A stretch of DNA of 16,220 bases from Candidatus Brocadiaceae bacterium (GTDB taxonomy: Bacteria > Planctomycetota > Brocadiia > Brocadiales > Bathyanammoxibiaceae), in contig JASEHG010000024.1 in NCBI GenBank assembly GCA_030018855.1, forward strand, positions 1 to 16,220, in the 5' to 3' direction. Each line of letters begins with the position of its first letter. The stretch's first letter is position 1. The position numbers and the translations under genes are program-made. This document shows positions 1-13,084 of the stretch, piece by piece. The notes beneath the pieces were generated by a model. The model did not search any database and was not told where the DNA came from. It saw nothing but the letters and a program-made list of their open reading frames with translations.

Positions 1-801
1 ATATCCCAGCTCCCCCTTCAGGCAGGCCTGCACCCCCCTGGTGAGCTGACCGGTGGTGGGGTCTACTAGTTTCAATTCCAGAGCCGTCCGCTTCTTTATC
101 AAACCCATCTCCCTGATGGTGGAGGCGAAAAGGGATTCAGTAATCATGTAACCGTCTTCGTCCACCAGATAGGTCTCGCCCGTCTCACCAAGCTTTACCC
201 CGCGCAACATCCTGGAGAGGGACATAACGTCCACCCTCAGGCTCACTACCCCAATGACCCTGTGCCTATCGTCCCTTACGGGACCTGAGACAAGGAGGGT
301 GGGCACACCCTTCTCCATCTCCCCGGACTCGTTCTGGATGGGAAGGGCAGAGGGGTGGACACGGGTTACGAAGACGTTACCCTTTAGTGCCTCCTGGAAG
401 TAATCAGATTCCGCCATACTTAGCTCCAGCAGGTCTTCTCTGGTAGATACCCTAATCCTACCCTGGTAGTCGGCAAGAGAGATTTCTTTGTAACCAAAAT
501 TGTCCTTTATGGATTGGAGTTGAGAAGTAAGCTCCTGGTACTCTTTGTCGCCCGGATTGAACCTTAGGAAGGAATTGATTAGATACTCCCCGGCCATAAC
601 CGTAACATGGGCCTTGCGCTCCTTCATCCACATGGAGACAAGCTCGGCCTGCTTGTGGCCCACGCTCTCCAGGTCTCTTTTCCCAGACTCTTGAAAGGCC
701 TTCTGTATCATGGGGAAACCCACCAGCCTGGTGGTCAGTAAGGGGACGCCGGAAAAGAGGAGGAAGAGGATTATCGTCCTACTACGAATAGAATCAAACA
801 T
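1..801 (-). CDS. Membrane-anchored Cache-type extracytoplasmic sensor protein, N-terminal 267 codons only. The output domain (kinase, MCP or cyclase) lies beyond the window edge.
   Basis: Hand translation of the minus strand from the ATG at 801-799 gives 267 sense codons with no stop, running off position 1. This is why it is absent from the ORF track. N-terminus MFDSIRSRTIILFLLFSGVPLLTT is a short cytoplasmic stub plus one TM helix. The periplasmic part contains Cache-like strings (GETGETYLVDEDGYMITES; HRVIGVVSLRVDV). An SD-like GGGAGAG sits 7 nt upstream of the ATG. An alternative in-frame ATG at 891 has no SD. Confidence 0.7.
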   Translation of the reverse strand, partial: MFDSIRSRTIILFLLFSGVPLLTTRLVGFPMIQKAFQESGKRDLESVGHKQAELVSMWMKERKAHVTVMAGEYLINSFLRFNPGDKEYQELTSQLQSIKDNFGYKEISLADYQGRIRVSTREDLLELSMAESDYFQEALKGNVFVTRVHPSALPIQNESGEMEKGVPTLLVSGPVRDDRHRVIGVVSLRVDVMSLSRMLRGVKLGETGETYLVDEDGYMITESLFASTIREMGLIKKRTALELKLVDPTTGQLTRGVQACLKGELGY

Positions 802-960
802 CTTCAGTCTCTCCCAGTGTAATGTGCCAGATTGCCTGGCCCGTTGGTTAAGTAAAAATTGTGCTACGCAAACCACGTACAAATTAGGCATGGGTAATGT
901 AGCACCAGGCAGAAAATCTTAGCAGACTGCGATGTCTTTGTCAATCGTGGCCGCTGAGCT

Positions 961-1084
961 TAGGGGGTAGGGAAGAATTGCATTGTAAATTGAAAATTGC
1001 AAATTTTAAAATTTAATCCGCCTCAGGCGGACCAATTTACACTTTACAATTTTCTGTTCCCTGGTCCCTACCCCCTACTCCCTA
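961..1084. repeat. Composite palindromic element in the divergent intergenic region. A 13-bp perfect outer stem encloses AT-rich word repeats and a small GC hairpin.
   Basis: TAGGGGGTAGGGA (961-973) is the exact reverse complement of TCCCTACCCCCTA (1066-1078). Inside are reiterated ATTGTAAA/TTTACAAT-type words, a perfect 14-nt palindrome AAATTTTAAAATTT (1001-1014) and the hairpin CCGCC-TCA-GGCGG (1018-1030). A related string CCTGAGGCGGACC recurs at about 1197-1209. Confidence 0.75.
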
Positions 1085-1110
1085 GTCTACACCGTCCATT
1101 TCAAAAGTTA

Positions 1111-2138: not shown

Positions 2139-2168
2139 TTGACAATAGAATGCGTACGATGTTATCAT
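2139..2168 (+). promoter_or_regulatory. Candidate sigma70-like promoter for the ACP-to-radical-SAM operon
   Basis: TTGACA (2139-2144), 18-nt spacer, TATCAT (2163-2168). It shares the TTATTGACA context with the 1111 candidate. Motif match only. Confidence 0.4.
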
Positions 2169-2257: not shown

Positions 2258-2557
2258 GTGTATTTGGAGACACTGAGCACGGAAGAAGTAGAAAAGGATG
2301 TTACTGCCATAGTAGCAGAGGTGACCGAGCTAGATAGGGAGGAGATATGGCAGAAAAGGGAGGCCAACTTTTTCAAAGAACTGGAGATAGACTCCCTCCT
2401 GGCCCTGGAGATATTGGCCCTTATAGAAAAGAAGTTCAAGATTCAGATTCCTGAAGAGAAGCTGGTAGACATTACCTCTCTAACTGGCACCATCAATATG
2501 ACCAAAGCGGTCCTGTCTGAGAATGGAAGGCTCAAGGGAGAGCCTCAGAAGGCCTAG
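2258..2557 (+). CDS. Acyl carrier protein, dedicated and longer than canonical AcpP
   Basis: The phosphopantetheine-attachment motif EIDSLLALEI (DSL serine at about residue 46) sits in a small acidic helical protein. The tracked GTG at 2258 directly abuts the AAGGAGG SD (2251-2257). TTG at 2264, with 6-nt spacing, is the more plausible start. Confidence 0.85.
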   Translation: MYLETLSTEEVEKDVTAIVAEVTELDREEIWQKREANFFKELEIDSLLALEILALIEKKFKIQIPEEKLVDITSLTGTINMTKAVLSENGRLKGEPQKA

Positions 2558-2569
2558 GAAGGACCCTTT

Positions 2570-3019
2570 ATGGGTATCAGTTTTGAGGAGGTAAGGAGAC
2601 TAGTCCCTCAGAGGTATCCTTTTCTCTTCATAGACAAGGTGGTGGAGTTAGAGGAAGGTAAGAGGATCTTATGCCTAAAGAATGTCTCAGGAAATGAATC
2701 TTTTTTTGTAGGACATTTCCCAGAGTATGCCATAATGCCTGGGGTGCTGACCCTGGAAGCCCTGGCCCAAGCCTCCATAATCTTATTCAAAAAAAGCTTC
2801 CTTAAAGAAGAAACTTCCAATTCGGTATTCCTCCTGGCCTCTCTGAGGGCCAGTTTCGTAAAGCCTGTCTTCCCCGGAGACCAGTTACTCCTGGAAGTCA
2901 ACGTGGAAAAGGTGGTGTCCAAAGGGGCAATTGTGCAGGGTACGGCAAGGGTGGGGGAGGAGATAGTAGCCAAGGCCTCCTTGACCTTCGGTCTGGCTGA
3001 TAAGAGTTCTCTGGGTTAG
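2570..3019 (+). CDS. fabZ: 3-hydroxyacyl-ACP dehydratase FabZ
   Basis: Hallmark strings LVPQRYPFLFIDKV and GHFPEYAIMPGVLTLEALAQ, with the catalytic His and Glu present. Length is 149 aa. RBS AGGAAGGA is 7 nt upstream. Confidence 0.93.
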   Translation: MGISFEEVRRLVPQRYPFLFIDKVVELEEGKRILCLKNVSGNESFFVGHFPEYAIMPGVLTLEALAQASIILFKKSFLKEETSNSVFLLASLRASFVKPVFPGDQLLLEVNVEKVVSKGAIVQGTARVGEEIVAKASLTFGLADKSSLG

Positions 3020-3090
3020 ATTTGGAGATTTAGAGATTTGAGATTTAGGGATTTAAAATCTAAAAATCCAAAATCTCAAAATCTAAAATT
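3017..3090. repeat. Mirrored word array: about 5 x (R)GAGATTT followed by about 5 x AAAATCT(C), forming an imperfect hairpin
   Basis: The sequence reads TAGATTT GGAGATTT AGAGATTT GAGATTT AGGGATTT | AAAATCT AAAAATCC AAAATCTC AAAATCT AAAATT. The first TAG is the fabZ stop codon. The element ends 5 nt before the fabF ATG. Confidence 0.8.
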
Positions 3091-3095
3091 ATGAA

Positions 3096-4316
3096 ATGGA
3101 AAGGCGTGTAGTAGTCACTGGGCTGGGCGTAATTACCCCTATCGGTTCTGGCAAGGACAAGTTCTGGAAGGCCCTGCTGGAAGGGAAGTCAGGCGTAGGG
3201 GAGGTAACTTGCTTTGATACCTCAGGACACAAAGTCCATAGGGGTACGGAGGTAAGGGACTTTAATCCCAGGGACTACATTAAGAACGGGACCGTAGACC
3301 AGCTGGGTAAGGGGTCTCAGATGGCCATTGCGGCCACCAAGTTGGCCCTGATGGACGGGGGACTAGGGCTTGCGGAGGTTGACCCAACAAGGATTGGCGT
3401 ATCAGTAGGAACGACCGGGGGAGAGATACAGATACTGGAAAAGATAAACCTTATAAGATATGGGCAGGACGAAGACCATGTGGACATAGGCCTCTTTCTG
3501 AGGCATCCCTGCAACAATATCCCCTCCAACATTGCCAGAGAATTTGGCCTCAAGGGCCCCAACATTATTATTCCCACCGCCTGTGCAGCCGGCAATTACG
3601 CCATTGGTTACGCCTACGACCTTATAAAACTAGGGAGGGCTGATTATATGCTGGCAGGGGGGGCAGACCCCTTCTCCAAGGTGGCCTTTATTGGCTTTGG
3701 CCGCCTGGGGGCAGTGGCACCGGATATCTGTCAGCCCTTTGATAAAAACCGTAAAGGCATGCTTGTGGGAGAGGGGGCAGGCATACTATTACTGGAACCC
3801 CTGGATAATGCCCTGAAAAGGGGTGCCACTATCTATGCCGAGATTATCGGCTACGGCCTTAGTTGCGATGGGTATCACATCACTATCCCACACCCGGAAG
3901 GGGATGGGGTGGCCTCCTCACTGCGGAAGGCCCTGAAGAATGCCGACATAACCCCTGAGGACGTGCAGTATATAAATGCCCACGGGACCGGTACCGTTGC
4001 CAACGACAGGGCAGAAACTATCTCTATAAAGAAGGTCTTTGGGGACCATGCCAGGAAGTTACTGGTGAGTTCTATAAAGTCCATGATGGGTCACACCATG
4101 GGGGCGGCCAGCGCAATAGAGACGGTTACCTGTGCCCTGGTGGTAAAACATGACGTAGTCCCCCCCACTATCAATTATCAGACAAAGGACCCAGAATGTG
4201 ACCTGGATTATGTGCCTAACGTAAAAAGGGAACATCCCGTAAACATAGCCCTTAACACGGCCTATGCCTTTGGGGGTAACAACAGTTGTCTGGTTATAAA
4301 GAAGTTCTTGAATTAA
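3096..4316 (+). CDS. fabF: Beta-ketoacyl-ACP synthase II (FabF-type), catalytically complete
   Basis: N-terminus [15 protein letters not shown]. Active-site Cys is in [11 protein letters not shown], His in [10 protein letters not shown] and His in [21 protein letters not shown] and the C-terminal [11 protein letters not shown] are present. In-frame TAA at 3084-3086 fixes the start at 3096. No SD is visible upstream. Confidence 0.93.
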
Positions 4317-4362
4317 CCGCAACATGCAGCTCCTTTCCCTATATTTTTAGCCATACAGAGAA

Positions 4363-5589
4363 ATGCAGAAACGGGTCGTAGTAACAGGTATTGGGATTAT
4401 CAGCCCCATAGGCACCGGTAAGGAGGCCTTCTGGGGGAACCTGGCTGCGGGTGTCTCAGGGGTAAGGCCCGTTACCCTCTTTGACGTGAGTAGGTACACC
4501 AGCCGGGCGGCTGGAGAAATAACTGACTTCAGTCCCAAGACCTACCTTGGACAGAAAGGTATAAGGCATTTTGATAGGACAAGCCTACTCATAACTGCCA
4601 CCGCTGCTATGGCCCTGGAAGATGCCCGACTGGATAAGGTCTATGGGGAGGAAGATATAGGGATAGTGGTGGGGTCCACCTTTGGGAGCATTAACAGTAT
4701 ATCTACCTTTGACATGGACGCCCTCAGAGAGGGGCCCAATTACGTCAACCCAATGGATTTCCCCAATACCGTCCTTAATGCCCCCGCCAGCCGTGCCTCC
4801 ATTTTTTGCCAGGCTAAAGGGCTAAACTCTACCGTTTCCACAGGGGAGACCAGTGGGACGGACGCTATAATCTATGCCTCTGACTTTCTTAAGATGGAAA
4901 GGATAAAGGTGGTGCTAGCTGGGGGCGTTTATGGCCTTACGAGGGATATCTTCTGGGCGGCTTACAAGGCAGGGGTCCTCTCCGGCAGTAAAGACAGCCA
5001 ATCAGAAATATGCGCACCATTTGATAAGAGGCGGAACGGAATTGTACTGGGAGAAGGGGCCGCATTACTGGTCCTTGAGACCCTGGAAGATGCCCTGGCC
5101 CGTAAGGCCACCATATATGCAGAGGTCAAAGGTTATGGTACTGCCTTCAATCCCACGAGCCTGAGCCAGAGTGACCTCCAGGGTGGGGTAAGGGCAGTCT
5201 CCATGGCCCTCCAGGAGGCAGGCCTCGGCCCGCGGGATATATCCTATGTCTCGGCCAATGCCAACTCCAGCCCTAACGGCGACCGTATGGAGGCCACCGT
5301 TATAAAGGAATCCTTCAAGGAACGGGCAAAAAGCATCCCTGTTAGTGCCATAAAGTCCATGACCGGGGACTGCCTGGACGCCTCCGGAACCATGCAGTGT
5401 ATAGCCTGCGTCGGGGCAATCAATAACGGGATAATCCCCCCGACGATCAACTATCGGGAACCAGACCCATTATGTGACCTTGACGTAGTCCCTAACGTGA
5501 AGAGGGAAGCAGTGGTCAGACATGCCCTGGTACAGAGTTTTTCTTACACAGGCAACTGTTCTGCCATGGTACTGTCTAAATACTCCTGA
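4363..5589 (+). CDS. KS-like protein lacking the Cys-His-His triad (chain-length-factor-like partner of the preceding FabF)
   Basis: It has the same fold signature (KRVVVTGIGIISPIG, LAGG, PPTINY, DVVPN). By hand alignment anchored on LAGG, GYG and Y(I/V)xA, Cys is replaced by Glu (STGETSGTDAI), His1 by Ser (NPTSLSQ) and His2 by Asn (VSANANSS). The GH of IKSMxGH becomes GD. In-frame TAG at 4348-4350 fixes the start. Confidence 0.85.
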   Translation: MQKRVVVTGIGIISPIGTGKEAFWGNLAAGVSGVRPVTLFDVSRYTSRAAGEITDFSPKTYLGQKGIRHFDRTSLLITATAAMALEDARLDKVYGEEDIGIVVGSTFGSINSISTFDMDALREGPNYVNPMDFPNTVLNAPASRASIFCQAKGLNSTVSTGETSGTDAIIYASDFLKMERIKVVLAGGVYGLTRDIFWAAYKAGVLSGSKDSQSEICAPFDKRRNGIVLGEGAALLVLETLEDALARKATIYAEVKGYGTAFNPTSLSQSDLQGGVRAVSMALQEAGLGPRDISYVSANANSSPNGDRMEATVIKESFKERAKSIPVSAIKSMTGDCLDASGTMQCIACVGAINNGIIPPTINYREPDPLCDLDVVPNVKREAVVRHALVQSFSYTGNCSAMVLSKYS

Positions 5590-5595
5590 CAATGA

Positions 5596-7008
5596 ATGGG
5601 CAGACCCTCGGCAAAACGGTACGACGTAGTAGTCATTGGGGCGGGTATTGGGGGGCTGGTCTGTAGTGCCTTCCTGTCCAGGAAGGGGAAGAAGGTACTC
5701 CTGGTAGAACAGCATTCTCAGCCTGGGGGTTACTGCACTACGTTCAAGAGGAAAGGTTTCGTCTTTGATGCAGCCGTGCATCATATAGGAGGTTGCGGAC
5801 GCTACAGTATCGTGGGGAGGTGTCTGAAAGAGTTGGGTCTGGGAATGGAGTTCTTCAGGCTGGACCCTATGGACAGCCTCATCTTCCCCGATTTTTCTAT
5901 TGATATTCCAGCAGAAATAGAGGATTATATAACTCTGCTGGGCAAGAAATACCCATTAGAAAAGGGACACGTTGAGAAGTTCTTTAAGGATTTTGTAAAA
6001 CTCTACTGGGCCATAATCAACGAGGCCTCAGATAGCCCAACCTTGAATAACTACAAGAATACGACGTATAAAGAGATGCTGGATAGCTTTTTTGAGGACG
6101 AGGGGCTGAAGAGGACCCTGGCAGGTCAGTGGGGCTATCTTGGTACGCCCCCTGGAGAGGTATCCAGTATAGGGATGTGCCAGATGTTGATAAATTACCT
6201 GAGGGATGGGGCCTATTACCCCAAGGGTGGCACACAGAACTTTGCCAATGGCCTGGCTAAGAATTTTACCGAATCCGGAGGTGAGACCCTCCTATCCACT
6301 ATGGCAGAAGAGGTCCTCATGGACGGTAGGAAGGTAAGGGGCGTTAAGCTGGAAGGAGGATGTGAGGCCCTGGCAGACGTAGTGGTTTCTAACGTGGATG
6401 CCAGGCAGACCTTTTCACGCCTCGTTAAAGAAGAGTTTGACCATACGTATTCAGAGAGGCTAAGGGGCATGAAAGAAAGCCCCTCCTATTTCCTCCTATA
6501 TCTGGGGCTTGACCCGGAGATTGACCTGAAAGGGTTCAGGAGAGGCTTTTATCACGGTCCGGGTAACCAGTGGAAATACGTATCTGCCCCCACAAAGGTG
6601 GATAGCAGCCTGGCCCCTGGAGGGAGACAGATTCTTAACGTGGTAGCCACCGTAGAGGAAAGTTACGAAGAAGTGAGGGACTGGAAGGCCCTGAAGGACA
6701 GGCTCACCCAGGAGAACATAAATTATCTTGATAGGCTGATACCCGCTCCAGGTGGACTCAGAAAGCACATAGAAGTAGTGGAGGCCGCAACCCCCAGGAC
6801 CCTGGAGCGATACACCCTGAATTCCAGAGGGGCTGCCTACGGGTGGGCAGTTACCCCGGAGCAGACAGGTTCGGGAAGGCTGGACCATCGCACCCCACTA
6901 GATAATCTCTTTCTGGCAGGACACTGGACGAATCCAGGGCCAGGAGTCTGTGCGGTAGTATCTTCGGGCTGGAGGGTGGCAAATCTTATACTAGGGAGTA
7001 GGGGGTAG
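5596..7008 (+). CDS. FAD-dependent oxidoreductase of the phytoene desaturase (CrtI)/COG1233 family
   Basis: N-terminal dinucleotide fold YDVVVIGAGIGGLVCSAFLSRKGKKVLLVEQHSQPGGY. C-terminal family motif LFLAGHWTNPGPGVCAVVSSG. Length is 470 aa. The start is 6 nt after the KS-like stop. Confidence 0.85.
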   Translation: MGRPSAKRYDVVVIGAGIGGLVCSAFLSRKGKKVLLVEQHSQPGGYCTTFKRKGFVFDAAVHHIGGCGRYSIVGRCLKELGLGMEFFRLDPMDSLIFPDFSIDIPAEIEDYITLLGKKYPLEKGHVEKFFKDFVKLYWAIINEASDSPTLNNYKNTTYKEMLDSFFEDEGLKRTLAGQWGYLGTPPGEVSSIGMCQMLINYLRDGAYYPKGGTQNFANGLAKNFTESGGETLLSTMAEEVLMDGRKVRGVKLEGGCEALADVVVSNVDARQTFSRLVKEEFDHTYSERLRGMKESPSYFLLYLGLDPEIDLKGFRRGFYHGPGNQWKYVSAPTKVDSSLAPGGRQILNVVATVEESYEEVRDWKALKDRLTQENINYLDRLIPAPGGLRKHIEVVEAATPRTLERYTLNSRGAAYGWAVTPEQTGSGRLDHRTPLDNLFLAGHWTNPGPGVCAVVSSGWRVANLILGSRG

Positions 7009-7070
7009 GGGATAGGGAGTAGGGAAAAGAGAAAAGATTGCTACCCCCTACACCCTACCCCCTACACCCT
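6992..7070. repeat. TAGGG-word / CCCTA-word long imperfect hairpin, with G-quadruplex-capable arms
   Basis: Left arm TAGGGAGTAGGGGGTAGGGGATAGGGAGTAGGG (6992-7024), 16-nt A-rich loop, right arm CTACCCCCTACACCCTACCCCCTACACCCT (7041-7070). GGGGGTAGGG (7001-7010) is the exact complement of CCCTACCCCC (7053-7062). The left arm encodes the last codons and the TAG stop (7006-8) of the CrtI-like gene. Confidence 0.85.
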
Positions 7071-7092
7071 AATTAAAGAGGAGGTAAGTTAT

Positions 7093-8544
7093 ATGAAAAA
7101 GATGCTCCTGATTAACCCTCATCCGCCAGGACGCCACGGGGAGGAGAGTATCCATGTCATCGTCCAGATGCCCTTGAACCTGGCTTACATCGCCGCCCTC
7201 ACACCAGGGGATTGGGAGTTTGACGTCGTTGACGAGAACATAGAACTCGCCCTGGACGAAAAGGAACAGGAGATAACTTTTGAGCCTCCCGACCTGGTGG
7301 CCATCACGGCACTGACCTATCAGGCCCCAAGGGCCTACAGGATCGCCATGGCCTGCAGGAAGCGCGGCATACCTGTCATCATGGGTGGTATCCATGCCTC
7401 CGTCTGCTCTGAGGAGGCCGTCCAGTACGTGGACGCCGTTATAACAGGCGAGGCGGAGACCGTCTGGCCAGAGGTAATCAGGGACTTTGAGCAGGGACAG
7501 CTGAAAAAGATATACAACGGCGGCCTGCCCCCTCTTTCTACGTTGAAAAAAGTCTACCCCGACAGAGAACTCCTGAAGAAGAAGTACGGCTACAAGTTTT
7601 CCTCCATAATCACCACCAAGGGCTGTCCCAACCGGTGCGACTTCTGCAGTGTACCTACCTTCCAGGGGCAGAAATTCAGGGAAAGACCCTATGAGGACGT
7701 CCTGGACGAGATGGCCGCTACGGACTACAAAGGTCTGATGTTCGCCGAAGATAATTTCTACGGGCACAGCGTAAAGTCTGCTGAACGGGCCAAAAACCTC
7801 TTCAGGGGTATGATAGACAGGAACCTGGGCAAGAACTGGTTGGGCTTCACTGCCCTGAACATCGGCCTTGACCCTGAGGTCCTACAGCTTATGACTAAAT
7901 CGGGCTGTTTTGGATTCCTTGTGGGTATTGAGTCCACCAACGAGCAGGTCCTTCAGAAGATGAACAAGAAGGTCAACCTCAGGCTGGGGACTACGAGTTA
8001 CAAGGACTGCATAAAGAAGGTCCACGACGCAGGCCTGATTGTCTGGGGTTCGGTGGTATTCGGTGCTGACGGAGACGACAAGGACTCCTTTAAGAGGATG
8101 GTGGACTTTATCCTGGACTGCCAGGTAGATATCCTCACCTACGGCCTAGATTGCCCATTTCCCAAGACCCCGTTATTCTACAGGTTAGATGCCGAAAGGA
8201 GACTCTTCAGGAAGAATTTCCCCTGGGACTGGCAGTACTATGAGACCGCACACATAGTCCACCGCCTCGTGGATATGACACTGGATGATTTTGTTAACGG
8301 CATGCAGTACGTTTACGACCATCTCTATGCCGGAGACAATCTCAGGATGCGTTTCAAGAATTCCATTAAGGCCACAGGCAATCCCCGCAACTCCATGTTT
8401 GCCCTGAGGGTAAGCCAGGATTGGGACCGGGTCTTCAAACAGGTGCTGGAGAACCTCCACAAGCTACAGGAATCAGGGGATTATTATAAGGATTGTTATA
8501 AAGAGACCGGTAAGACTGCCGTCTCTCTTTCAGGCACTGCTTAG
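7093..8544 (+). CDS. B12-binding-domain radical SAM enzyme (class B rSAM)
   Basis: N-terminal cobalamin-binding-type Rossmann segment (LVAITALTYQAPRAYRIAMACRKRGIPVIMGGIHAS), followed by the radical SAM cluster motif GCPNRCDFCS (CxxxCxxC). Strong RBS AGAGGAGG 8 nt upstream. Confidence 0.9.
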   Translation: MKKMLLINPHPPGRHGEESIHVIVQMPLNLAYIAALTPGDWEFDVVDENIELALDEKEQEITFEPPDLVAITALTYQAPRAYRIAMACRKRGIPVIMGGIHASVCSEEAVQYVDAVITGEAETVWPEVIRDFEQGQLKKIYNGGLPPLSTLKKVYPDRELLKKKYGYKFSSIITTKGCPNRCDFCSVPTFQGQKFRERPYEDVLDEMAATDYKGLMFAEDNFYGHSVKSAERAKNLFRGMIDRNLGKNWLGFTALNIGLDPEVLQLMTKSGCFGFLVGIESTNEQVLQKMNKKVNLRLGTTSYKDCIKKVHDAGLIVWGSVVFGADGDDKDSFKRMVDFILDCQVDILTYGLDCPFPKTPLFYRLDAERRLFRKNFPWDWQYYETAHIVHRLVDMTLDDFVNGMQYVYDHLYAGDNLRMRFKNSIKATGNPRNSMFALRVSQDWDRVFKQVLENLHKLQESGDYYKDCYKETGKTAVSLSGTA

Positions 8545-8549
8545 AAGTT

Positions 8550-8609
8550 GTAGGGGCGTATTGTTCGCTATTATGCGAATCTGCCTAAGGCATGGCAATA
8601 CGCCCCTAC
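8550..8609. repeat. GTAGGGGC-family element folding as a three-way junction
   Basis: Perfect 14-bp outer stem GTAGGGGCGTATTG (8550-8563) / CAATACGCCCCTAC (8596-8609). It encloses two mini-hairpins, TTCGC-TATTAT-GCGAA (8564-8579) and TGCC-TAA-GGCA (8582-8592). It starts 6 nt after the rSAM stop and has no U-tract. Confidence 0.8.
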
Positions 8610-8684
8610 CGCGGCCCCTCTAATAACCACTCTTAAAGGAGCTTACGTCTGGTGCAAATCTTTGCATGAGGCCCGATTTTGCTA

Positions 8685-8712
8685 TTGACTTTTGGTTTTT
8701 ATTCGCTAAACT
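8685..8712 (+). promoter_or_regulatory. Candidate distal promoter for the Rieske/cyt b operon
   Basis: TTGACT (8685-8690), 16-nt spacer, TAAACT (8707-8712). Palindrome TGCAAA-TC-TTTGCA (8653-8666) lies just upstream. Motif match only. Confidence 0.3.
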
Positions 8713-8837
8713 ATCCGTGCTTCTCAGTGAGGAGGGAGGCCAATAGCCATCTACCTAAAAGGCAGGAGGTTCAGTATCACAGGGGCCGCGCCTACGGTAC
8801 TTGTGATTCGGTGGAGTTGTCTGTACGAAATGCGGGC

Positions 8838-8865
8838 TTGAAATTTCCATTTAGAATGCTATAAA
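8838..8865 (+). promoter_or_regulatory. Candidate proximal promoter for the Rieske/cyt b operon
   Basis: TTGAAA (8838-8843), 16-nt spacer, TATAAA (8860-8865). It would give a leader of about 100 nt containing the 8891-8939 hairpins. GGAGG RBS at 8961-8965. Confidence 0.4.
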
Positions 8866-8890
8866 ATACAACATCCTTCTCCTAATAGAC

Positions 8891-8939
8891 GTAGGGCACG
8901 GTTTTAACCCTGCCCAATATGGACAGACCTTTAGGTCTG
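8891..8939. repeat. Leader hairpins of the GTAGGG / CTGCCCA word family
   Basis: GTAGGGCACGG-TTTTAA-CCCTGCCC (8891-8915) is a stem with one mismatch. It is followed by CAGACCT-TT-AGGTCTG (8924-8939). The word CTGCCCA(A)TA occurs at 8911, 8936 and 11472. Confidence 0.5.
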
Positions 8940-8971
8940 CCCATACTACGTACACCTCTTGGAGGTAGGCG

Positions 8972-10873
8972 ATGGCTCACGAGGATAGGTTTACCATAGA
9001 TTTAGGACAGCCTGAACTCAATATAAACATCCTGCCACGTCTTGCTATCCGCTATAAAGGTTCCTTCCAAAAGCTCCTCTCAGAAAGAAAATACAAAGCA
9101 GACGTTGCCAATGACCTACAATGGTTCCACAAAAACGTACCCTGCCGTGAGGCCTGTCCTGTAGGGACTAATGCCAGGGCCTATGTCACGGCCATTGCTA
9201 AGGGGGATTACCAGGAGGCCTACCTTGTAGCTCGTGAAAACAACCCCTTTGTATCTGTCTGCGGTAAGATTTGTAATGCCCCCTGTGAACCTGTCTGCAC
9301 CAGGAGTAAGCTGGACGAACCGGTGTCCATTAGGGCCCTGAAAGGGTTTGCGGTAGAAAAAAACCGTCTGGGCACCAGAGAGGTCTACCAGTGGCTCAAT
9401 AAAAAGAAGGGGAAGGTGTCGCTTGCTGGAAAGGCAGAAGTTCCTAATATAGCAATAGTTGGAGCAGGGCCTGCGGGCCTGTCTGCCGCACACGACCTCG
9501 CTCTTATGGGTTACAAGGTGAAACTACTGGAGGCCTCCAGCCAGCCTGGTGGTATGTTGAACAACGCCATCCCCGCCTTCAGGCTAGACAGAGAGGCAGT
9601 AAAAAGAGACATAGAAGGCATCCTCTCGCTGGGTATGGAATTAGAGATTAACACCAGGTGTGGAGAGGACTTCGGTATAGATGAGCTCAGGCAGAAGTAC
9701 GATGCCGTACTCTTAGCCGCCGGCTTACAGAAGGGTAGGTCCCTGGACGTGCCTGGCATGGAACTAGCAGGGGTATCTCAGGGGCTGGATTTCCTCAAAG
9801 AAGTGGCCTCCAGGGGGAGGGCCTCATTGGGGACGAAGGTTGTGGTAGTGGGCGGGGGTAGTATGGCTGTAGAGGTGGCCCGTACTGCACGGCGATTAGG
9901 GGTATGGAATACAAAGGTAACTGTGGTCTCTTACGAGGCATCCAGGGGTACGAAGCCCGGAAAGCCGGGGCAAGAGATGACAGCAGAGGATACGGAGATT
10001 GCTGAGGCCCTACAAGAAGGGGTGGTATTCTATCCAGGGCTTGGTCCTAGACGCATATTGGGAGAAGGCGGCAGGGTAACGGGTCTGGAACTGGTCCCGG
10101 TTGTGGCACTAGACCGTGACGGGGGAGGGCGATATAAACCTGTCTTTGGGCAAAACGGTTCCAGCGTTATAGAGGCAGACACGGTACTCCTGGCGATTGG
10201 CCAGGAGCCTGATACTGCCCTTCTCCAGAATACGAATTGTGGGGTGCGGATTGCGGAATCCCGCATCCTGCATTCCGAATTCCGCATTCCTGGGGCGGAT
10301 GGGGTCTTTGTCTGTGGTGACCTGGCTGGTGCTGGGCATGTAGTGGAGGCGGTTGCCTCCGGGCAGAAGGCCGCCCTTGCCATCCATAATTACCTGGAAG
10401 GCAAGGGTTCTCTTGGACTAGGCGAACTGCGCCCTGTAGTACCCGTCCACCACCACGAGAAATCGGACACCTTTACCAAACGGCTTACGATAGGTCGGAT
10501 TCTGCCTCCAATAGCACCCACAGATGCCAGGCTCAGGGGTATGGACCCCGTGGAAGGGAGTTATTCTGAGAAGGTTGCCAGGAGGCAGGCGGAGAGGTGC
10601 CTGGACTGTACGGTAAGCCCAATGATAGGGCCCTACCATCCTTGCACCGCCTGTGGCGACTGTCTGGACGTCTGCCCTACAGAGTGTCTTTCTTTAAGGT
10701 TCATGAATAATAAAGACCTCAGTTTTGGTGACAGTTGCATAGAGGAGGCTGAGGGAGAAGGCCCCTGGGTGGGGTTAATTATAAATGAAGAGGAGTGTGT
10801 CCACTGCGGGGCCTGCGCCGAGGCCTGCTGGTCGGATGCCATATACATGGTAAAGTTCAAAGAGATGGAATAG
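8972..10873 (+). CDS. GltD-like FAD/NAD(P)H-dependent iron-sulfur oxidoreductase with a C-terminal 2x[4Fe-4S] ferredoxin domain (NAD(P)-linked subunit of the Rieske/cyt b complex)
   Basis: N-terminal GltD-type Cys clusters (CREACPVGTNARAYV; VCGKICNAPCEPVCTR). Two dinucleotide folds (IAIVGAGPAGLSAA; VVVVGGGSMAVEVA). GVFVCGD motif. C-terminal CTACGDCLDVCP and CVHCGACAEAC. Confidence 0.88.
   Translation: MAHEDRFTIDLGQPELNINILPRLAIRYKGSFQKLLSERKYKADVANDLQWFHKNVPCREACPVGTNARAYVTAIAKGDYQEAYLVARENNPFVSVCGKICNAPCEPVCTRSKLDEPVSIRALKGFAVEKNRLGTREVYQWLNKKKGKVSLAGKAEVPNIAIVGAGPAGLSAAHDLALMGYKVKLLEASSQPGGMLNNAIPAFRLDREAVKRDIEGILSLGMELEINTRCGEDFGIDELRQKYDAVLLAAGLQKGRSLDVPGMELAGVSQGLDFLKEVASRGRASLGTKVVVVGGGSMAVEVARTARRLGVWNTKVTVVSYEASRGTKPGKPGQEMTAEDTEIAEALQEGVVFYPGLGPRRILGEGGRVTGLELVPVVALDRDGGGRYKPVFGQNGSSVIEADTVLLAIGQEPDTALLQNTNCGVRIAESRILHSEFRIPGADGVFVCGDLAGAGHVVEAVASGQKAALAIHNYLEGKGSLGLGELRPVVPVHHHEKSDTFTKRLTIGRILPPIAPTDARLRGMDPVEGSYSEKVARRQAERCLDCTVSPMIGPYHPCTACGDCLDVCPTECLSLRFMNNKDLSFGDSCIEEAEGEGPWVGLIINEEECVHCGACAEACWSDAIYMVKFKEME
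10244..10286. repeat. In-frame copy of a 43-nt GCGGAAT/ATTCCGC word element inside the GltD-like CDS
   Basis: GTGCGGATTGCGGAATCCCGCATCCTGCATTCCGAATTCCGCA matches the intergenic 11405-11447 at 33 of 43 positions (hand count). The first 7 and last 13 nt are identical, over the same overall length. It encodes VRIAESRILHSEFRI. Confidence 0.45.
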
Positions 10874-10888
10874 GGAGAAAAATGTTTT

Positions 10889-11392
10889 ATGTTTAAACCA
10901 GTGGCGAAGGCTGAGGCTATAGACCCGAAGAAGATTGCCCGTAGGGAGGCTATCCGAAAGGGCCTCTTCTGGGCCTGTTGGGGGGTCTTCATTGGGTTTG
11001 CCGGGATATTAGGGGCAAGCATAGTGAGGTTTGCGTATCCCAGGATAGTCTTTGAGCCCTCCAGTATATTTAAAGCCGGTAAACCGGACGACTACAAGGT
11101 AGGTTCGGTTGCGCTTATCCATGGTAGAGGGGTCTTTGTGATAAGGACGGAAAAGGGATTCTATGCCCTATCAGCCAAGTGTACCCATTTGGGATGCCAG
11201 CCCATCTGGTATGAGGACCAGCAGGTCTTCAAGTGTCCGTGTCATGGCGCCCGTTTTGATAAGGAAGGTATTAACTTTGCCGGTCCAGCCCCCCTGCCAT
11301 TGCCCAGGTTCCACCTGAGCCTCTCCCCGGATGGCCGTTTACTGGTAGATAAGTCAACAAACGTGGGTATGGACTTCTTCCTGGAGGCATGA
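10889..11392 (+). CDS. Rieske [2Fe-2S] protein
   Basis: CTHLGC...CPCHGARFD cluster-binding boxes. N-terminal Arg-rich segment (IARREAIRKGLF) followed by a TM helix, as in Tat-dependent Rieske anchors. The upstream ATG at 10882 hits a TAA after 4 codons. Confidence 0.92.
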   Translation: MFKPVAKAEAIDPKKIARREAIRKGLFWACWGVFIGFAGILGASIVRFAYPRIVFEPSSIFKAGKPDDYKVGSVALIHGRGVFVIRTEKGFYALSAKCTHLGCQPIWYEDQQVFKCPCHGARFDKEGINFAGPAPLPLPRFHLSLSPDGRLLVDKSTNVGMDFFLEA

Positions 11393-11404
11393 AAAGGGCG
11401 TGGA

Positions 11405-11447
11405 GTGCGGAGTACGGGATTCTGGACTCCGCCTTCCGAATTCCGCA
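11405..11447. repeat. Intergenic 43-nt GCGGA/TCCGC word element
   Basis: Contains the hairpin GCGGAGT-N12-ACTCCGC and the 3' string TTCCGAATTCCGCA. It is paralogous to 10244-10286. Confidence 0.55.
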
Positions 11448-11452
11448 CAGTT

Positions 11453-11477
11453 GTAGGGGCAGGGCTTGCCCCTGCCC
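11453..11477. repeat. GTAGGGGC-family hairpin
   Basis: GTAG-GGGCAGGG-CTTGC-CCCTGCCC (8-bp stem, 5-nt loop). It is preceded by GTT as in the 8547 copy and followed by ATA. Confidence 0.7.
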
Positions 11478-11502
11478 ATAAGAAAGGCGAGGTAAGATTG
11501 GA

Positions 11503-12123
11503 ATGAAGTGGGTACCGTTAGGCCTTGTGAGATATACCGTCTGTCTGGGCGGGCTCAGTGTGTTCTTCTTCCTGTTATGCATCCTCACCGGGCCATTCCT
11601 GATGCTTTATTATGTGCCTGACGTGAACCGTGCCCATGCCGACGTGATGGATATTATGCAGGTAGTGCCCTTTGGGGCCTTTGTCAGGAACGTCCACCGC
11701 TGGTCGGCCTGTCTTATGATTGTCTGCGTACCCGCACACATGACCAGGGTATTCCTTCAGGCCGCATATAAGCCCCCGCGCCAGCTCAACTGGCTGGTAG
11801 GGATTACGCTGCTAATCCTTACCTATCTCATGTGTTTCACGGGCTACATGCTCCCCTGGGACCAGGAGGCCTACTGGGGCGCCACCATCGGGGCCACCAT
11901 GGCGGAGAACTCCCCTTTCCTTGGGGCAAAAGGACCCTTTAGCGTACTTCCGCCAGATAAGGACATACATTACATAATGCTGGGTGGTACCGTGTTAGAC
12001 CAACCGACGCTCAGCCGTTTCTTTTTCGCGCACTGTATCGCTATCCCAGGTGCCCTCGCAGGGTTAATGGGATTCCACTTTTTCAATATCCACAGGGCCG
12101 GTGGTATGTCGGGCCCATTATAA
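11503..12123 (+). CDS. Cytochrome b, N-terminal (b6-like) subunit
   Basis: Helix B heme ligands HRWSACLMIVCVPAH (H-x13-H) and helix D HCIAIPGALAGLMGFH (H-x14-H). N-terminal VCLGG matches the YCLGG heme-ci cysteine context of b6. In-frame TAA at 11479-81 fixes the start. Confidence 0.92.
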   Translation: MKWVPLGLVRYTVCLGGLSVFFFLLCILTGPFLMLYYVPDVNRAHADVMDIMQVVPFGAFVRNVHRWSACLMIVCVPAHMTRVFLQAAYKPPRQLNWLVGITLLILTYLMCFTGYMLPWDQEAYWGATIGATMAENSPFLGAKGPFSVLPPDKDIHYIMLGGTVLDQPTLSRFFFAHCIAIPGALAGLMGFHFFNIHRAGGMSGPL

Positions 12124-12137
12124 CCAGGGAACAACCT

Positions 12138-12938
12138 ATGGCAGAAAAGATCGTTGAAGAAGGACCAGTAACCGCAGAGGGCAAAGAAAAGCTGAGACTC
12201 CTCACAGTGGTGAGGGGTGAGACCCTGCGGAATAGGGACATCTACGAGAGACCTCCCAAGTACGAACTCTTCTTCCCCAATTTCGTGATGAAGGAGTTGT
12301 GCGTGGGATTGGCCTTCCTAATAATTATCTTTATGTGGGCCTACTTTAAGGATTCGCCCCTTTACGAGTTGTCTGACCCCGCTGAGACACCTTCACACAT
12401 AAAGGCCGCATGGTACTTTGTGGGATTACAGGAGATGCTGGCCTATTTTGACCCCTATCTGGCAGGGGTGATTATCCCCTCCATGATACTGGCCGGGCTT
12501 TATCTGATACCCTTTATTGACCCAGACCCGGTGAAGGGGATAGGCCGTTTTGCCTTCAAGGAGAGGAAGTTCGCCATCGGCTGTTTCCTGGGGGGGGTTG
12601 CCATGTGGTATGGCCTCCTCCTGGTGGGCTGGTTCTTCAGGGGACCTTACTGGAGCTTCTACTGGCCGTGGGAGGACCACTCGGTAGTGAAGGCCACGGA
12701 AGTAGCCCTCTGGAGCTTCCCCCTCCCAGCAGGGATAGCCTTCCTCGTGTGTTATGGGATGTTGGTGCTTATCCTCCCCGCCGTTATCTTCCAGAACTTC
12801 TTCTTCCGGCTGGGGTTGATAAGATACCTTATCACGTTTAACCTCTTTGCGGTCATGTGTTTCGTACCCATCAAGATACTTCTGAGAAGCGCATTTAGTG
12901 TGAAATATATACTTGTAACACCATGGTTCAACATTTAA
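12138..12938 (+). CDS. Cytochrome b C-terminal subunit (subunit IV-like, extended with extra TM helices)
   Basis: AAWYFVGLQEMLAYF aligns with the PEWYF(Y/L)P Qo-site segment of subunit IV / cyt b C-terminal domains. Multiple hydrophobic helices. It starts 14 nt after the cyt b stop. Confidence 0.85.
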   Translation: MAEKIVEEGPVTAEGKEKLRLLTVVRGETLRNRDIYERPPKYELFFPNFVMKELCVGLAFLIIIFMWAYFKDSPLYELSDPAETPSHIKAAWYFVGLQEMLAYFDPYLAGVIIPSMILAGLYLIPFIDPDPVKGIGRFAFKERKFAIGCFLGGVAMWYGLLLVGWFFRGPYWSFYWPWEDHSVVKATEVALWSFPLPAGIAFLVCYGMLVLILPAVIFQNFFFRLGLIRYLITFNLFAVMCFVPIKILLRSAFSVKYILVTPWFNI

Positions 12939-12966
12939 GAGGAGACCGCTGAAAAACATGCGCAGT

Positions 12967-13039
12967 GTCATTCTGAGGGAGCGAAGCGACCGAAGAATCT
13001 CAGTTGAAACGGGAGATTCTTCGCTTCGCTCAGAATGAC
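12967..13039. repeat. Long three-segment hairpin (CATTCTGAG...CTCAGAATG type)
   Basis: Left arm GTCATTCTGAG-ggag-CGAAGCGA-ccga-AGAATCTC, loop AGTTGAAACGG, right arm GAGATTCT-TCGCTTCG-CTCAGAATGAC. That is 27 bp in three helices with two 4-nt bulges and no U-tract. Confidence 0.85.
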
Positions 13040-13084
13040 AGGACGTATCATTGAGACTTTTGCAGAGGTCTCAAGAGACTAAAA

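What the first reader, a model, noticed from the sequence alone, without database searches (positions are those of the whole stretch)
5596..8544. CrtI-like flavoprotein paired with a class B (B12-domain) radical SAM enzyme as the unexplained tailoring module
**Seen in the sequence.**
- A 470-aa FAD-fold protein with CrtI/COG1233 N- and C-terminal signatures starts 6 nt after the KS-like gene.
- A 483-aa protein follows, with an N-terminal cobalamin-binding-type domain and a CPNRCDFC radical SAM cluster motif.
- The two are separated by an 84-nt gap filled with a G/C hairpin.

**Established knowledge.** CrtI-family enzymes introduce, isomerise or saturate conjugated double bonds in long hydrocarbon chains. 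Class B rSAM enzymes do methylations and other C-C bond chemistry on unactivated carbons.

**Inference.** Neither belongs in a standard type II FAS operon. Together they are the most plausible candidates for making a conjugated polyene and driving radical C-C bond formation (cyclobutane rings). This is a hypothesis only.
Basis: partly seen in the sequence, partly recalled or inferred. Interest (0 to 1): 0.7.

Follow-up and report, generated by a model that had tools for sequence, protein, structure and literature searches.

The report
Anammox "Cluster I" flavoprotein–radical SAM pair
These two genes are the long-suspected but still unproven enzymes for making the ladder-shaped lipids of anammox bacteria, and the same gene set also turns up in soil bacteria not known to make such lipids.

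Summary
Window 5596-7008 encodes a 470-aa CrtI-fold FAD protein. Window 7093-8544 encodes a 483-aa class-B-type radical SAM protein with a B12-binding domain and the motif C178-PNR-C182-DF-C185. An 84-nt gap with a stable hairpin separates them.

Together with the four genes upstream (ACP, FabZ, KS, Cys-less KS), they form "Cluster I" (KustE3603-3608) of anammox bacteria, here in a Ca. Tripitaka-like Brocadiales genome. A review from August 2026 still lists it as untested. Neither protein reaches the curated cut-off of any functionally defined family tested.

New here: the colinear six-gene cassette, including this pair, is not exclusive to anammox bacteria, contrary to published statements. 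It occurs in Acidobacteriota and other Planctomycetota.

In several uncultured bacteria the cassette continues directly into more B12-rSAM paralogues, a second KS pair, and ECH and/or KR genes. One of those paralogues groups with the anammox kuste2803-type rSAM at 100% bootstrap. Cluster I and kuste2802-2805 therefore look like two parts of one ancestral supercluster.

The pair is best read as a tailoring module acting on ACP-bound unsaturated chains. Cyclobutane formation remains unproven.

The parts
2139..2168 (+). Promoter-like site upstream of the ACP gene; candidate operon promoter
   Evidence: TTGACA-18-TATCAT, 11 of 12 matches with TG extension. This is a consensus match only.
2258..2557 (+). 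Acyl carrier protein, amxACP-like (KustE3603 equivalent)
   Evidence: Pfam PP-binding E 3e-12. It scores below the canonical ACP cut-off (TIGR00517 44 vs 70 bits). It is 45-55% identical to the ACPs of non-anammox cassettes.
2570..3019 (+). FabZ-type 3-hydroxyacyl-ACP dehydratase (amxFabZ, KustE3604 equivalent)
   Evidence: Pfam FabA E 2.4e-24; NF000582 FabZ 142 bits.
3096..4316 (+). Active ketosynthase (amxFabF2, KustE3605 equivalent)
   Evidence: ketoacyl-synt N and C domains; the Cys of PTACAAG is present.
4363..5589 (+). Catalytically dead, chain-length-factor-like KS (amxFabFmut, KustE3606 equivalent)
   Evidence: 37% identical to the active KS. The triad is replaced: Cys->Glu, His->Ser/Thr, His->Asn. 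A heterodimer was shown for orthologues in bioRxiv 10.64898/2026.05.19.726425.
5596..7008 (+). CrtI-fold FAD flavoprotein ('PDH-like', KustE3607 equivalent)
   Evidence: The family motif PGGxCTxFxRKGxxFDAAVHHIGxCG is shared with acidobacterial and planctomycete cassette proteins.
7005..7065 (+). Intergenic hairpin of TAGGG / CCCTA repeats between the two genes
   Evidence: -33.5 kcal/mol, z -4.2. The near-identical relative L005 has a different-sequence hairpin at the same place (-50.3 kcal/mol, z -8.7).
7079..7084 (+). Ribosome-binding site AGGAGG of the rSAM gene
   Evidence: Read from the sequence, 8 nt before ATG 7093. Identical in L005.
7093..8544 (+). Class-B-type (B12-binding domain) radical SAM enzyme (KustE3608 equivalent)
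   Evidence: It is 74% identical to the Kuenenia orthologue P0017.
8549..8611 (+). Strong hairpin directly after the rSAM stop codon; probable end of the operon transcript
   Evidence: -36.8 kcal/mol, z -5.9, 0 of 200 shuffles. It has no T-run. A 427-nt non-coding stretch follows.

Best explanation
The two genes are the tailoring pair of anammox 'Cluster I' (KustE3603-3608), here in a Ca. Tripitaka-like Brocadiales bacterium. The cluster is a type II PKS/FAS-like assembly line.

**Proposed mechanism.**
1. The dedicated ACP is loaded.
2. The KS/CLF-like heterodimer primes by decarboxylating malonyl-ACP. This step is published for orthologues; chain extension by the heterodimer is inferred.
3. 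A FabG-type reductase and the FabZ produce enoyl intermediates. The reductase is encoded elsewhere in anammox bacteria but lies adjacent in other phyla.
4. No version of the cassette encodes an enoyl reductase, so the ACP-bound chain stays unsaturated. This is inferred from gene content.
5. The CrtI-fold flavoprotein then changes the number, position or geometry of C=C bonds in that tethered chain. This is inferred.
6. The class-B-type rSAM uses a 5'-deoxyadenosyl radical, probably with cobalamin, to make a new C-C bond in the chain. That bond could be a ring closure or a methyl/methylene insertion, possibly repeated as the chain grows. This is inferred.

**Wider pathway (shown by synteny and phylogeny).** The pair belongs to a larger pathway that anammox bacteria keep in separate loci. 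In other bacteria the cassette runs straight on into one or two further B12-rSAM paralogues, a second KS/KS-like pair, and ECH and/or KR genes.

The product is most likely a modified (cyclised or branched) acyl chain for membrane lipid. A role in ladderane synthesis is plausible but unproven, and the module is not ladderane-specific by distribution.
For: **Identity with Cluster I.** The gene order ACP-FabZ-KS-deadKS-flavoprotein-rSAM matches. The rSAM is 74% identical to the Kuenenia orthologue and 98% to Ca. Tripitaka californicus. The flavoprotein is 56-59% identical to the Scalindua orthologues among the listed hits. The literature description agrees.

**The pair is a unit.**
- The two genes are adjacent or abutting in every full cassette: L001/L002, L084, L086, L089, L091, L093, L123, L124 and L125, plus the partial loci L090 and L092.
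- 22 rSAM/flavoprotein pairs share the same contig-length value.
- The signature motifs of the flavoprotein are conserved across phyla.

**No ER.** No called gene in any of those loci hits an enoyl-reductase family. A KR (adh_short/KR) is adjacent in L001, L084, L123 and L125 and lies in the same locus in L086.

**Supercluster.**
- L124 reads SCP2-ACP-FabZ-KS-KS-flavoprotein-rSAM-rSAM-rSAM-KS-KS-ECH.
- L124_r3 groups with the anammox type-B rSAM at 100% NJ bootstrap. All first-position rSAMs group with the window type at 98%.
- The L124 KS pair is 58% and 43% identical to the Brocadia type-B pair.
- Brocadia L006 reads ACPS-rSAM-KS-KS, the kuste2802-2805 order.

**Class-B architecture.** The model has pLDDT 84. 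Fold neighbours are AprD4, TsrM, MgmA, CysS, TokK and OxsB. There are only three invariant cysteines, so no auxiliary cluster is indicated. CysS and TokK act on pantetheine-linked substrates, as their entry titles state.

**Published biochemistry.** The KS/CLF heterodimer decarboxylates malonyl-amxACP and prefers C6-C8. amxFabZ prefers C6-C8.
Against: - No biochemical activity is known for either protein.
- Expression of Cluster I in E. coli gave no ladderanes (PMC4790861) and no polyunsaturated fatty acids (PMC10139942).
- The best structural neighbour, AprD4, has the same N-terminal domain. From my own recollection it binds no cobalamin, so cobalamin use is not established.
- The window itself has no KR gene, so the reductive steps must be supplied in trans.
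- The trees are simple NJ trees. The link between the anammox stand-alone rSAM clade and the second-position rSAMs has only 38% bootstrap.
- Homologous cassettes at 40-60% identity need not make the same product.
Confidence: 0.65

Rival explanations
1. The flavoprotein desaturates an acyl chain into a conjugated polyene. The B12-rSAM then starts a radical cascade that folds the polyene into fused cyclobutanes. The pair would thus be the ladderane synthase proper.
For: - The pair is conserved in all anammox lineages found.
- It has a CrtI fold and class-B rSAM architecture.
- Among the curated families the rSAM matches far below cut-off are BchE (annotated as an anaerobic oxidative cyclase) and HpnJ; from my own recollection OxsB, a fold neighbour, performs a ring contraction. 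Non-methylating B12-rSAM chemistry therefore has precedent.
- It is the consensus guess in the literature.
- Anammox bacteria are strict anaerobes, which favours rSAM chemistry.
Against: [quoted passage not shown]
- The KS/CLF and FabZ prefer C6-C8.
- The kuste3607 protein did not replace CrtI.
- The cassette lacks an ER, so a desaturase is not needed to obtain a polyene.
- The same cassette occurs in Acidobacteriota and other Planctomycetota, which are not known to make ladderanes.
- Anammox bacteria carry two more paralogous rSAMs, any of which could be the cyclase.
Confidence: 0.15
2. The rSAM is a cobalamin-dependent C-methyltransferase, possibly iterative, acting on the ACP-bound enoyl chain. 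The flavoprotein reduces or isomerises the resulting double bond. The products are methyl-branched or cyclopropanated acyl chains, which may or may not be rearranged later into rings.
For: - Solved class-B neighbours include the methyltransferases TsrM, TokK and MgmA and the class-B enzyme CysS. By my own recollection, most characterised class-B rSAMs are methylases.
- The top-scoring curated family is the PhpK methyltransferase family, and the Kuenenia orthologue is auto-annotated as a BchR-like methyltransferase.
- CysS and TokK work on pantetheinylated substrates.
- Cyclopropane-then-rearrangement routes to ladderanes, and the Jaw5 precedent, are discussed.
- From my own knowledge, anammox bacteria also make 10-methylhexadecanoic acid.
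Against: - Scores against all methylase families are far below the cut-offs (100 vs 600 bits and similar).
- The best fold match is the non-methylating AprD4.
- No cyclopropyl fatty acids have been detected in anammox bacteria.
Confidence: 0.25
3. The cassette makes a specialised polyene-type metabolite, such as an aryl-polyene-like pigment or an exported lipid, that is unrelated to ladderanes. Ladderanes would be made by other loci.
For: - The FabZ of the non-anammox cassettes hits ApeI/ApeP-like domains.
- The KS/CLF-without-ER logic matches polyene type II PKSs, for example the ishigamide Iga11/12 pair cited.
- The distribution is patchy across soil MAGs.
- An RND/MMPL-like exporter follows the cassette in L125.
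Against: - The cluster is reported to be conserved in all known ladderane producers and highly expressed there.
- SCP2 lipid-carrier genes flank some clusters.
Confidence: 0.15

Closest known systems
Anammox 'Cluster I', KustE3603-3608 of Kuenenia stuttgartiensis (Rattray 2009; Javidpour 2016; Dietl 2023; Granatino 2026)
   Same: Same six genes in the same order. The rSAM is 74% identical, and the flavoprotein is 56-59% identical to the Scalindua orthologues. The second KS has a degenerate triad. The host is of anammox type, with Rieske/cyt b and HAO-like genes next door.
   Different: The lineage is different (Ca. Tripitaka-like, about 52% GC). The KS2 active-site Cys is replaced by Glu, rather than the Val or Thr reported for other genera. 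An 84-nt hairpin separates the two genes, whereas the gap is about 15 nt in L004. The cluster sits next to an R/b-complex operon.
CrtI / CrtD / CrtISO / RetSat family of carotenoid desaturases, isomerases and saturases
   Same: FAD Rossmann N-terminus, full-length amine-oxidase fold and the C-terminal GHWTxPGPG motif. TM is 0.79 to 4REP, and the E-value to CrtI 4DGK is 4.6e-30.
   Different: It scores below the crtI_fam cut-off (177 vs 238 bits). It carries its own motif, AAVHHIGxCG. The orthologue does not desaturate phytoene. The gene context is acyl-ACP, not isoprenoid.
Class B (cobalamin) radical SAM enzymes: TsrM, TokK, CysS, MgmA, OxsB, BchE
   Same: N-terminal B12-binding-type Rossmann domain plus a CxxxCxxC TIM-barrel core, with no auxiliary cluster cysteines.
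   Different: Only 14-19% identity to any solved member. All curated families score far below their cut-offs. The nearest fold is AprD4, which from my recollection lacks cobalamin. The substrate is presumably an acyl-ACP.
Jaw5 with the iterative PKS Jaw4 (jawsamycin polycyclopropanation)
   Same: The concept is shared: an rSAM working with a chain-building synthase on enoyl thioesters to install contiguous small rings (reviewed in PMC13459092).
   Different: From my own recollection Jaw5 is a HemN-like (class C) rSAM and the synthase is type I. No sequence relationship was shown here.
KS/CLF polyene-forming type II PKSs (ishigamide Iga11/Iga12; aryl polyene systems)
   Same: A KS plus dead-KS heterodimer, a discrete ACP, a FabZ-like DH (with ApeI/ApeP-like hits in relatives), a KR, and no ER.
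   Different: Those systems have no CrtI-fold flavoprotein and no B12-rSAM.
TIGR04072 'rSAM_ladder_B12' lipid-biosynthesis B12/rSAM family
   Same: A B12-rSAM found in FAS-like clusters of anammox bacteria and Deltaproteobacteria.
   Different: The window protein scores 82 bits against a cut-off of 360. The type-B paralogues also fail. It is a different family.

Membership tests
Anammox Cluster I (KustE3603-3608) | Colinear order ACP - FabZ - KS - dead KS - CrtI-like flavoprotein - B12 rSAM | tested here: met
   ORFs 2258-8544 with Pfam and NCBIfam assignments.
Anammox Cluster I (KustE3603-3608) | Orthology of the two proteins to the Kuenenia and Scalindua cluster proteins | tested here: met
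   The rSAM is 74% identical to P0017 (Kuenenia stuttgartiensis) and falls in the anammox clade with 98% bootstrap. The flavoprotein is 56-59% identical to the Scalindua proteins.
Anammox Cluster I (KustE3603-3608) | Second KS lacks the Cys-His-His triad | tested here: met
   Cys->Glu, His->Ser/Thr, His->Asn in the pairwise alignment.
Anammox Cluster I (KustE3603-3608) | Cluster found exclusively in ladderane producers (as claimed in the literature) | tested here: not met
   Full colinear cassettes occur in Acidobacteriota (L001, L089, L091, L093; NCBI labels Acidobacteria, Terriglobales, Vicinamibacteria), in Planctomycetota MAGs (L084) and in unassigned high-GC contigs. This is a property claimed for the cluster, not a criterion that excludes the window.
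Phytoene desaturase family (TIGR02734 crtI_fam) | Score above the curated family cut-off | tested here: not met
   177.3 bits against a cut-off of 238.1.
Phytoene desaturase family (TIGR02734 crtI_fam) | FAD-binding GxGxxG N-terminus and full-length CrtI fold | tested here: met
   GAGIGG at residues 15-20; NAD_binding_8 60 bits; Amino_oxidase over 18-466; Foldseek hits 4REP (TM 0.79) and 4DGK.
Phytoene desaturase family (TIGR02734 crtI_fam) | Converts phytoene to lycopene | not testable with these tools
   Published for the orthologue kuste3607: no lycopene in the E. coli complementation assay (PMC4790861).
Class B (cobalamin-dependent) radical SAM | CxxxCxxC cluster motif in a radical SAM core | tested here: met
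   C178, C182 and C185 are invariant in 18 homologues; PF04055 59.7 bits.
Class B (cobalamin-dependent) radical SAM | N-terminal B12-binding-type domain | tested here: met
   PF02310 49 bits (cut-off 32.1) over residues 27-128. The fold matches TsrM, TokK, CysS and OxsB.
Class B (cobalamin-dependent) radical SAM | Actually binds and uses cobalamin | not testable with these tools
   The best fold match, AprD4, has the same domain; from my own recollection it binds no cobalamin. No cobalamin riboswitch is present in the window.
TIGR04072 rSAM_ladder_B12 | Score above the curated cut-off | tested here: not met
   81.9 bits against a cut-off of 360. The paralogues score 82-87 bits.
BchE / HpnJ / HpnR / PhpK / TsrM-type families | Score above the curated cut-off of any of these equivalogs | tested here: not met
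   75 vs 481, 81 vs 578, 63 vs 650, 100 vs 600 and 53 vs 500 bits.

The most novel reading that the evidence does not exclude
The flavoprotein-rSAM pair is the core of an old, widely distributed supercluster. That supercluster comprises an ACP, a FabZ, two KS/KS-like pairs, a CrtI-fold flavoprotein, up to three paralogous B12-rSAMs, an ECH and a KR. It survives intact in uncultured soil and sediment bacteria, including Acidobacteriota and non-anammox Planctomycetota. Anammox bacteria split it into separate loci (Cluster I, kuste2802-2805 and a stand-alone rSAM).

If so, non-anammox bacteria make ladderane-like or closely related ring-bearing fatty acids. Ladderane biosynthesis could then be studied in simpler, possibly oxygen-tolerant hosts. 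Ladderanes would also not be a strictly anammox-specific trait.
Probability: 0.2. Interest if true: 0.85.

Novelty: already known. Interest (0 to 1): 0.5.

Why it matters
How ladderanes are made has been open since 2002. They are the only known natural fused-cyclobutane lipids and a biomarker for anammox. This gene pair is the field's prime suspect, so the finding as written adds nothing new.

The comparative result does matter. One of the arguments for the cluster's role is that it is found only in ladderane producers, and that claim is contradicted here. The pair is also tied by synteny and phylogeny to the kuste2802-2805 cluster. This gives a defined larger gene set to reconstitute: two KS pairs, up to three rSAMs, the flavoprotein, an ECH and a KR. 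It also offers many non-anammox homologues that may express better than the recalcitrant anammox proteins.

Tried and rejected
- **Genome-collection scan.** It returned mostly relatives at 27-39% identity and only four close loci. I could not survey cultured species.
- **Metagenome scan.** The scan with P0075 found only its own acidobacterial clade plus distant relatives.
- **TIGR04072.** This family looked like the obvious home for the rSAM but fails it (82 vs 360 bits). It also fails the type-B paralogues.
- **RNA elements.** Rfam and tRNA scans of the window found nothing, including no cobalamin riboswitch.
- **Hairpin as terminator.** I rejected this reading. No T-run follows, an RBS follows directly, and the scan lists no terminator there.
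- **Fold searches.** They confirmed the superfamilies only. They cannot tell desaturase from isomerase or saturase, or methylase from cyclase.
- **Cluster-member look-up.** It gave taxon names for only a few clusters. L086, L088, L123, L124 and L125 remain taxonomically unassigned.
- **Tandem rSAMs in L084.** They group with each other in the tree. That locus is therefore a local duplication, not evidence for A/B orthology.
- **Clade C.** The link between the anammox stand-alone rSAM clade and the second-position rSAMs is weak (38% bootstrap), and I do not rely on it.

Full report
**1.

The window carries an uninterrupted + strand gene series:

| Coordinates | Product |
|---|---|
| 2258-2557 | ACP |
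| 2570-3019 | FabZ |
| 3096-4316 | KS |
| 4363-5589 | second KS |
| 5596-7008 | 470-aa flavoprotein |
| 7093-8544 | 483-aa radical SAM protein |

The flavoprotein starts 6 nt after the second KS. It matches Pfam Amino_oxidase over residues 18-466 (E 2.9e-21) and NAD_binding_8. Its best curated family is TIGR02734 crtI_fam at 177 bits, which is below the cut-off of 238. The closest solved sequence is CrtI 4DGK (E 4.6e-30). An AlphaFold model (pLDDT 80) superposes best on the CrtD-like desaturase 4REP (TM 0.79), then on 3KA7 and CrtI.

The rSAM has a B12-binding domain at residues 27-128 (49 bits, cut-off 32) and a Radical_SAM core at 172-340. Its motif is C178-PNR-C182-DF-C185. These are the only cysteines invariant in 18 homologues, so no auxiliary cluster is indicated. 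Its model (pLDDT 84) matches AprD4 (TM 0.67), TsrM, MgmA, CysS, TokK and OxsB at 14-19% identity.

The 84-nt gap holds a hairpin at 7005-7065 (-33.5 kcal/mol, z -4.2). An AGGAGG site follows it 8 nt before the ATG.

**2. What the locus is.**

The best hits are Ca. Tripitaka californicus (rSAM 98% identical) and a Candidatus Brocadiaceae MAG (flavoprotein 100% identical). Contig MHYW01000013.1 (L005) is colinear with the window at 82-99% protein identity across all genes. Downstream lie a GltD-like Fe-S flavoprotein, a Rieske protein, a split cytochrome b, a multihaem protein and an HAO-like octahaem protein. This is the type of Rieske/cyt b complex known from anammox bacteria.

The second KS has lost its catalytic triad: Cys->Glu, His->Ser/Thr, His->Asn.

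The six genes are therefore 'Cluster I', KustE3603-3608: amxACP, amxFabZ, amxFabF2, amxFabFmut, a 'phytoene-dehydrogenase-like' protein and a cobalamin rSAM.

**3.

- Rattray et al. 2009 proposed that the phytoene-desaturase-like proteins, including Kuste3607, make polyunsaturated chains that SAM radical enzymes then cyclise (PMC2649909).
- Javidpour et al. 2016 showed that kuste3607 does not replace CrtI. They also found that Cluster I in E. coli gives no ladderanes (PMC4790861).
- Dietl et al. 2023 found that amxFabZ prefers C6-C8 substrates. They noted that neither polyunsaturated nor cyclopropyl fatty acids have been detected in anammox bacteria (PMC10139942).
- Granatino et al. 2026 showed that the two KS proteins form a KS/CLF-like heterodimer that primes by malonyl-ACP decarboxylation and favours C6-C8.
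- A review dated August 2026 states that the cyclobutane-forming enzyme is unknown (PMC13459092).

The rSAM reaches no functionally defined family:

| Family | Score (bits) | Cut-off (bits) |
|---|---|---|
| PhpK | 100 | 600 |
| TIGR04072 rSAM_ladder_B12 | 82 | 360 |
| HpnJ | 81 | 578 |
| BchE | 75 | 481 |
| HpnR | 63 | 650 |

The flavoprotein orthologue is not a carotenoid enzyme.

**4. New comparative evidence: the cassette is not exclusive to anammox bacteria.**

The literature calls the cluster 'encountered exclusively' in ladderane producers and 'unique to ladderane-producing bacteria'. I found the complete colinear cassette, ACP-FabZ-KS-deadKS-flavoprotein-rSAM, usually followed by a KR, in several other places:

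- An Acidobacteria MAG: L001 (GCA_036790625.1), L002 and L089. The NCBI label is 'Acidobacteria bacterium 13_1_40CM_2_60_7', and glycoside hydrolase genes flank the cassette.
- Further soil contigs 80-83% identical to it: L091 and L093, plus the partial loci L090 and L092.
- A Planctomycetota MAG: L084 (GCA_008501825.1).
- Unassigned contigs with 55-72% GC: L086, L123, L124 and L125.

Identities to the window in these loci are:

| Protein | Identity to window |
|---|---|
| rSAM | 56-60% |
| KS | 54-65% |
| dead KS | 30-58% |
| flavoprotein | 38-52% |
| FabZ | 41-55% |
| ACP | 45-55% |

Other members of the same protein clusters carry the NCBI labels Terriglobales and Vicinamibacteria.

The flavoproteins share a motif found in both anammox and non-anammox cassettes: PGGxCTxFxRKGxxFDAAVHHIGxCG. 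They also share QWGYLG, GMCQML and GHWTxPGPG. Searching with the acidobacterial flavoprotein returns its own clade first and then the anammox Cluster I proteins (43-47%). Scores then fall steadily through relatives at 33-44% identity (Desulfobacterales 38%), with a sharper drop below about 30% to generic CrtD- and RetSat-like proteins. The match is therefore reciprocal and the subfamily is distinct from the generic CrtI-like proteins.

Matching the unusual 'longest contig' values between the rSAM list, one member from the cluster look-up, and the two flavoprotein lists gives 22 lineages in which both genes lie on one contig. This match is heuristic. Eleven non-anammox loci were verified by sequence.

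**5. New comparative evidence: a supercluster.**

In several non-anammox loci the cassette runs straight on:

| Locus | Gene order |
|---|---|
| L124 | SCP2-ACP-FabZ-KS-KS-flavoprotein-rSAM1-rSAM2-rSAM3-KS-KS-ECH |
| L123 | AccD/AccA-ACP-FabZ-FGE-KS-KS-flavoprotein-rSAM-rSAM-MIase-KS-KSlike-Fer4-ECH-KR |
| L086 | Similar, with an rSAM::KS fusion and, further on, KS-ACP-ACPS-FabH |

Anammox genomes hold a second paralogue (type B, 49-53% identical) in the order ACPS-rSAM-KS-KSlike. This is the kuste2802-2805 arrangement (L006 and L007, and the table). They also hold a third, stand-alone clade (L087).

The NJ tree with 200 bootstraps gives:

| Grouping | Bootstrap |
|---|---|
| Anammox type B + L124_r3 | 100% |
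| All first-position rSAMs + the window type | 98% |
| Anammox type A + its nearest non-anammox sister group | 93.5% |
| Stand-alone clade + second-position rSAMs | 38% (unresolved) |

The downstream KS pair of L124 is 58% and 43% identical to the Brocadia type-B pair, and closer to it than to the Cluster I pair.

I conclude that Cluster I and the kuste2802-2805 cluster are parts of one ancestral pathway. This is a synteny and phylogeny inference, not a biochemical result.

**6. Mechanism.**

- *Shown in the literature for orthologues:* KS/CLF priming, and a short-chain preference of the KS/CLF and the FabZ.
- *Shown here:* constant pairing of the flavoprotein and the rSAM behind the KS/CLF; no called gene hitting an enoyl-reductase family in any version examined; a KR adjacent or nearby outside the anammox bacteria; the link to further rSAMs and a second KS pair.
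- *Inferred:* the ACP-bound chain stays unsaturated. The flavoprotein adjusts its double bonds, acting as a desaturase, isomerase or saturase. These cannot be told apart by sequence or fold. The rSAM makes a C-C bond by radical chemistry, either as a ring closure or as a methyl or methylene transfer.

I put about 0.65 on this general reading. I put about 0.4-0.5 on any role in ladderane synthesis. The classic desaturase-then-polycyclisation version gets about 0.15. The methyltransferase variant gets 0.25. That is what most characterised class-B enzymes are, from my own recollection, and CysS and TokK act on pantetheine-linked substrates. A ladderane-unrelated polyene or exported lipid gets 0.15.

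**7. The hairpin.**

It is lineage-specific. The gap is about 15 nt in L004, and the genes abut in the acidobacterial loci.

In the near-identical relative L005 the flanks are the same. Both arms, however, are replaced by a different repeat (ACAGG/CCTGT instead of TAGGG/CCCTA), and the stem is even stronger (-50.3 kcal/mol, z -8.7). The structure is kept while the sequence is swapped. This suggests a selected RNA structure, such as a processing or stability element setting the ratio of the two proteins, or a turnover-prone palindromic element. I did not resolve which.

A second strong hairpin (8549-8611, z -5.9) closes the operon.

**8. Verdict.**

The added value lies in the non-exclusive distribution and the supercluster link. 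Together these weaken one published argument for the hypothesis and define a better gene set and better source organisms for testing it.

Noticed in passing
window 7005-7065 vs L005:6909-6982: The hairpin between the flavoprotein and rSAM genes is structurally conserved in a 96-99% identical relative. Both arms, however, are made of a different short repeat (TAGGG/CCCTA vs ACAGG/CCTGT), while the flanks and the RBS are identical.
   Followed up: partly
window 1058-1089; 10239-10286 and 11400-11447: Further copies of short-period G-rich or C-rich repeat elements. One is a CCCTA-type repeat upstream of the operon. Another is a TGCGGA/TCCGCA-type element in the Rieske/cyt b intergenic region. This suggests a family of repeat-built intergenic elements in this genome.
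   Followed up: partly
window 8545-8971: A 427-nt non-coding stretch after the rSAM gene starts with a very stable hairpin (8549-8611, z -5.9). It has no Rfam match and contains promoter-like sites before the next operon.
   Followed up: partly
window 8972-16220: Directly downstream lies a Rieske/cytochrome b operon: a GltD-like Fe-S flavoprotein, a Rieske protein, a split cytochrome b, a multihaem protein and an HAO-like octahaem protein. By the published locus numbering, the lipid cluster and the R/b-3-type complex are not neighbours in Kuenenia.
   Followed up: partly
window 4363-5589: The dead KS has Glu in place of the active-site Cys. The literature reports Val or Thr for other anammox genera and Glu for a Rhodopirellula paralogue.
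   Followed up: partly
window 1-918 (- strand), 1256-1708, 1810-2070: A dCache_1 sensor protein runs off the left end on the minus strand. A 150-aa protein with no family match and an FmdB zinc-ribbon protein precede the ACP gene; both are conserved in L005.
   Followed up: partly
L087:10001-14327; L125:12470-17394; L124:4732-5067; L086:3775-3984: Lipid-handling genes sit next to members of the rSAM family. Mla-type transport genes lie beside the stand-alone Brocadiales-type paralogue. An RND/MMPL-like exporter follows the cassette in L125. SCP2 lipid-carrier genes lie upstream of the ACP gene in L124 (directly) and L086 (one gene further).
   Followed up: no
L086:11465-14053: One called gene fuses a B12-rSAM to a ketosynthase N-terminal domain (862 aa). 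This hints at physical coupling between the rSAM and a KS. The contig shows frameshift-like fragmentation, so the fusion may be an assembly artefact.
   Followed up: no
L003:1-3437: A Myxococcota contig carries two tandem rSAM paralogues followed by a KS. The contig is too short to show whether a flavoprotein is present.
   Followed up: no
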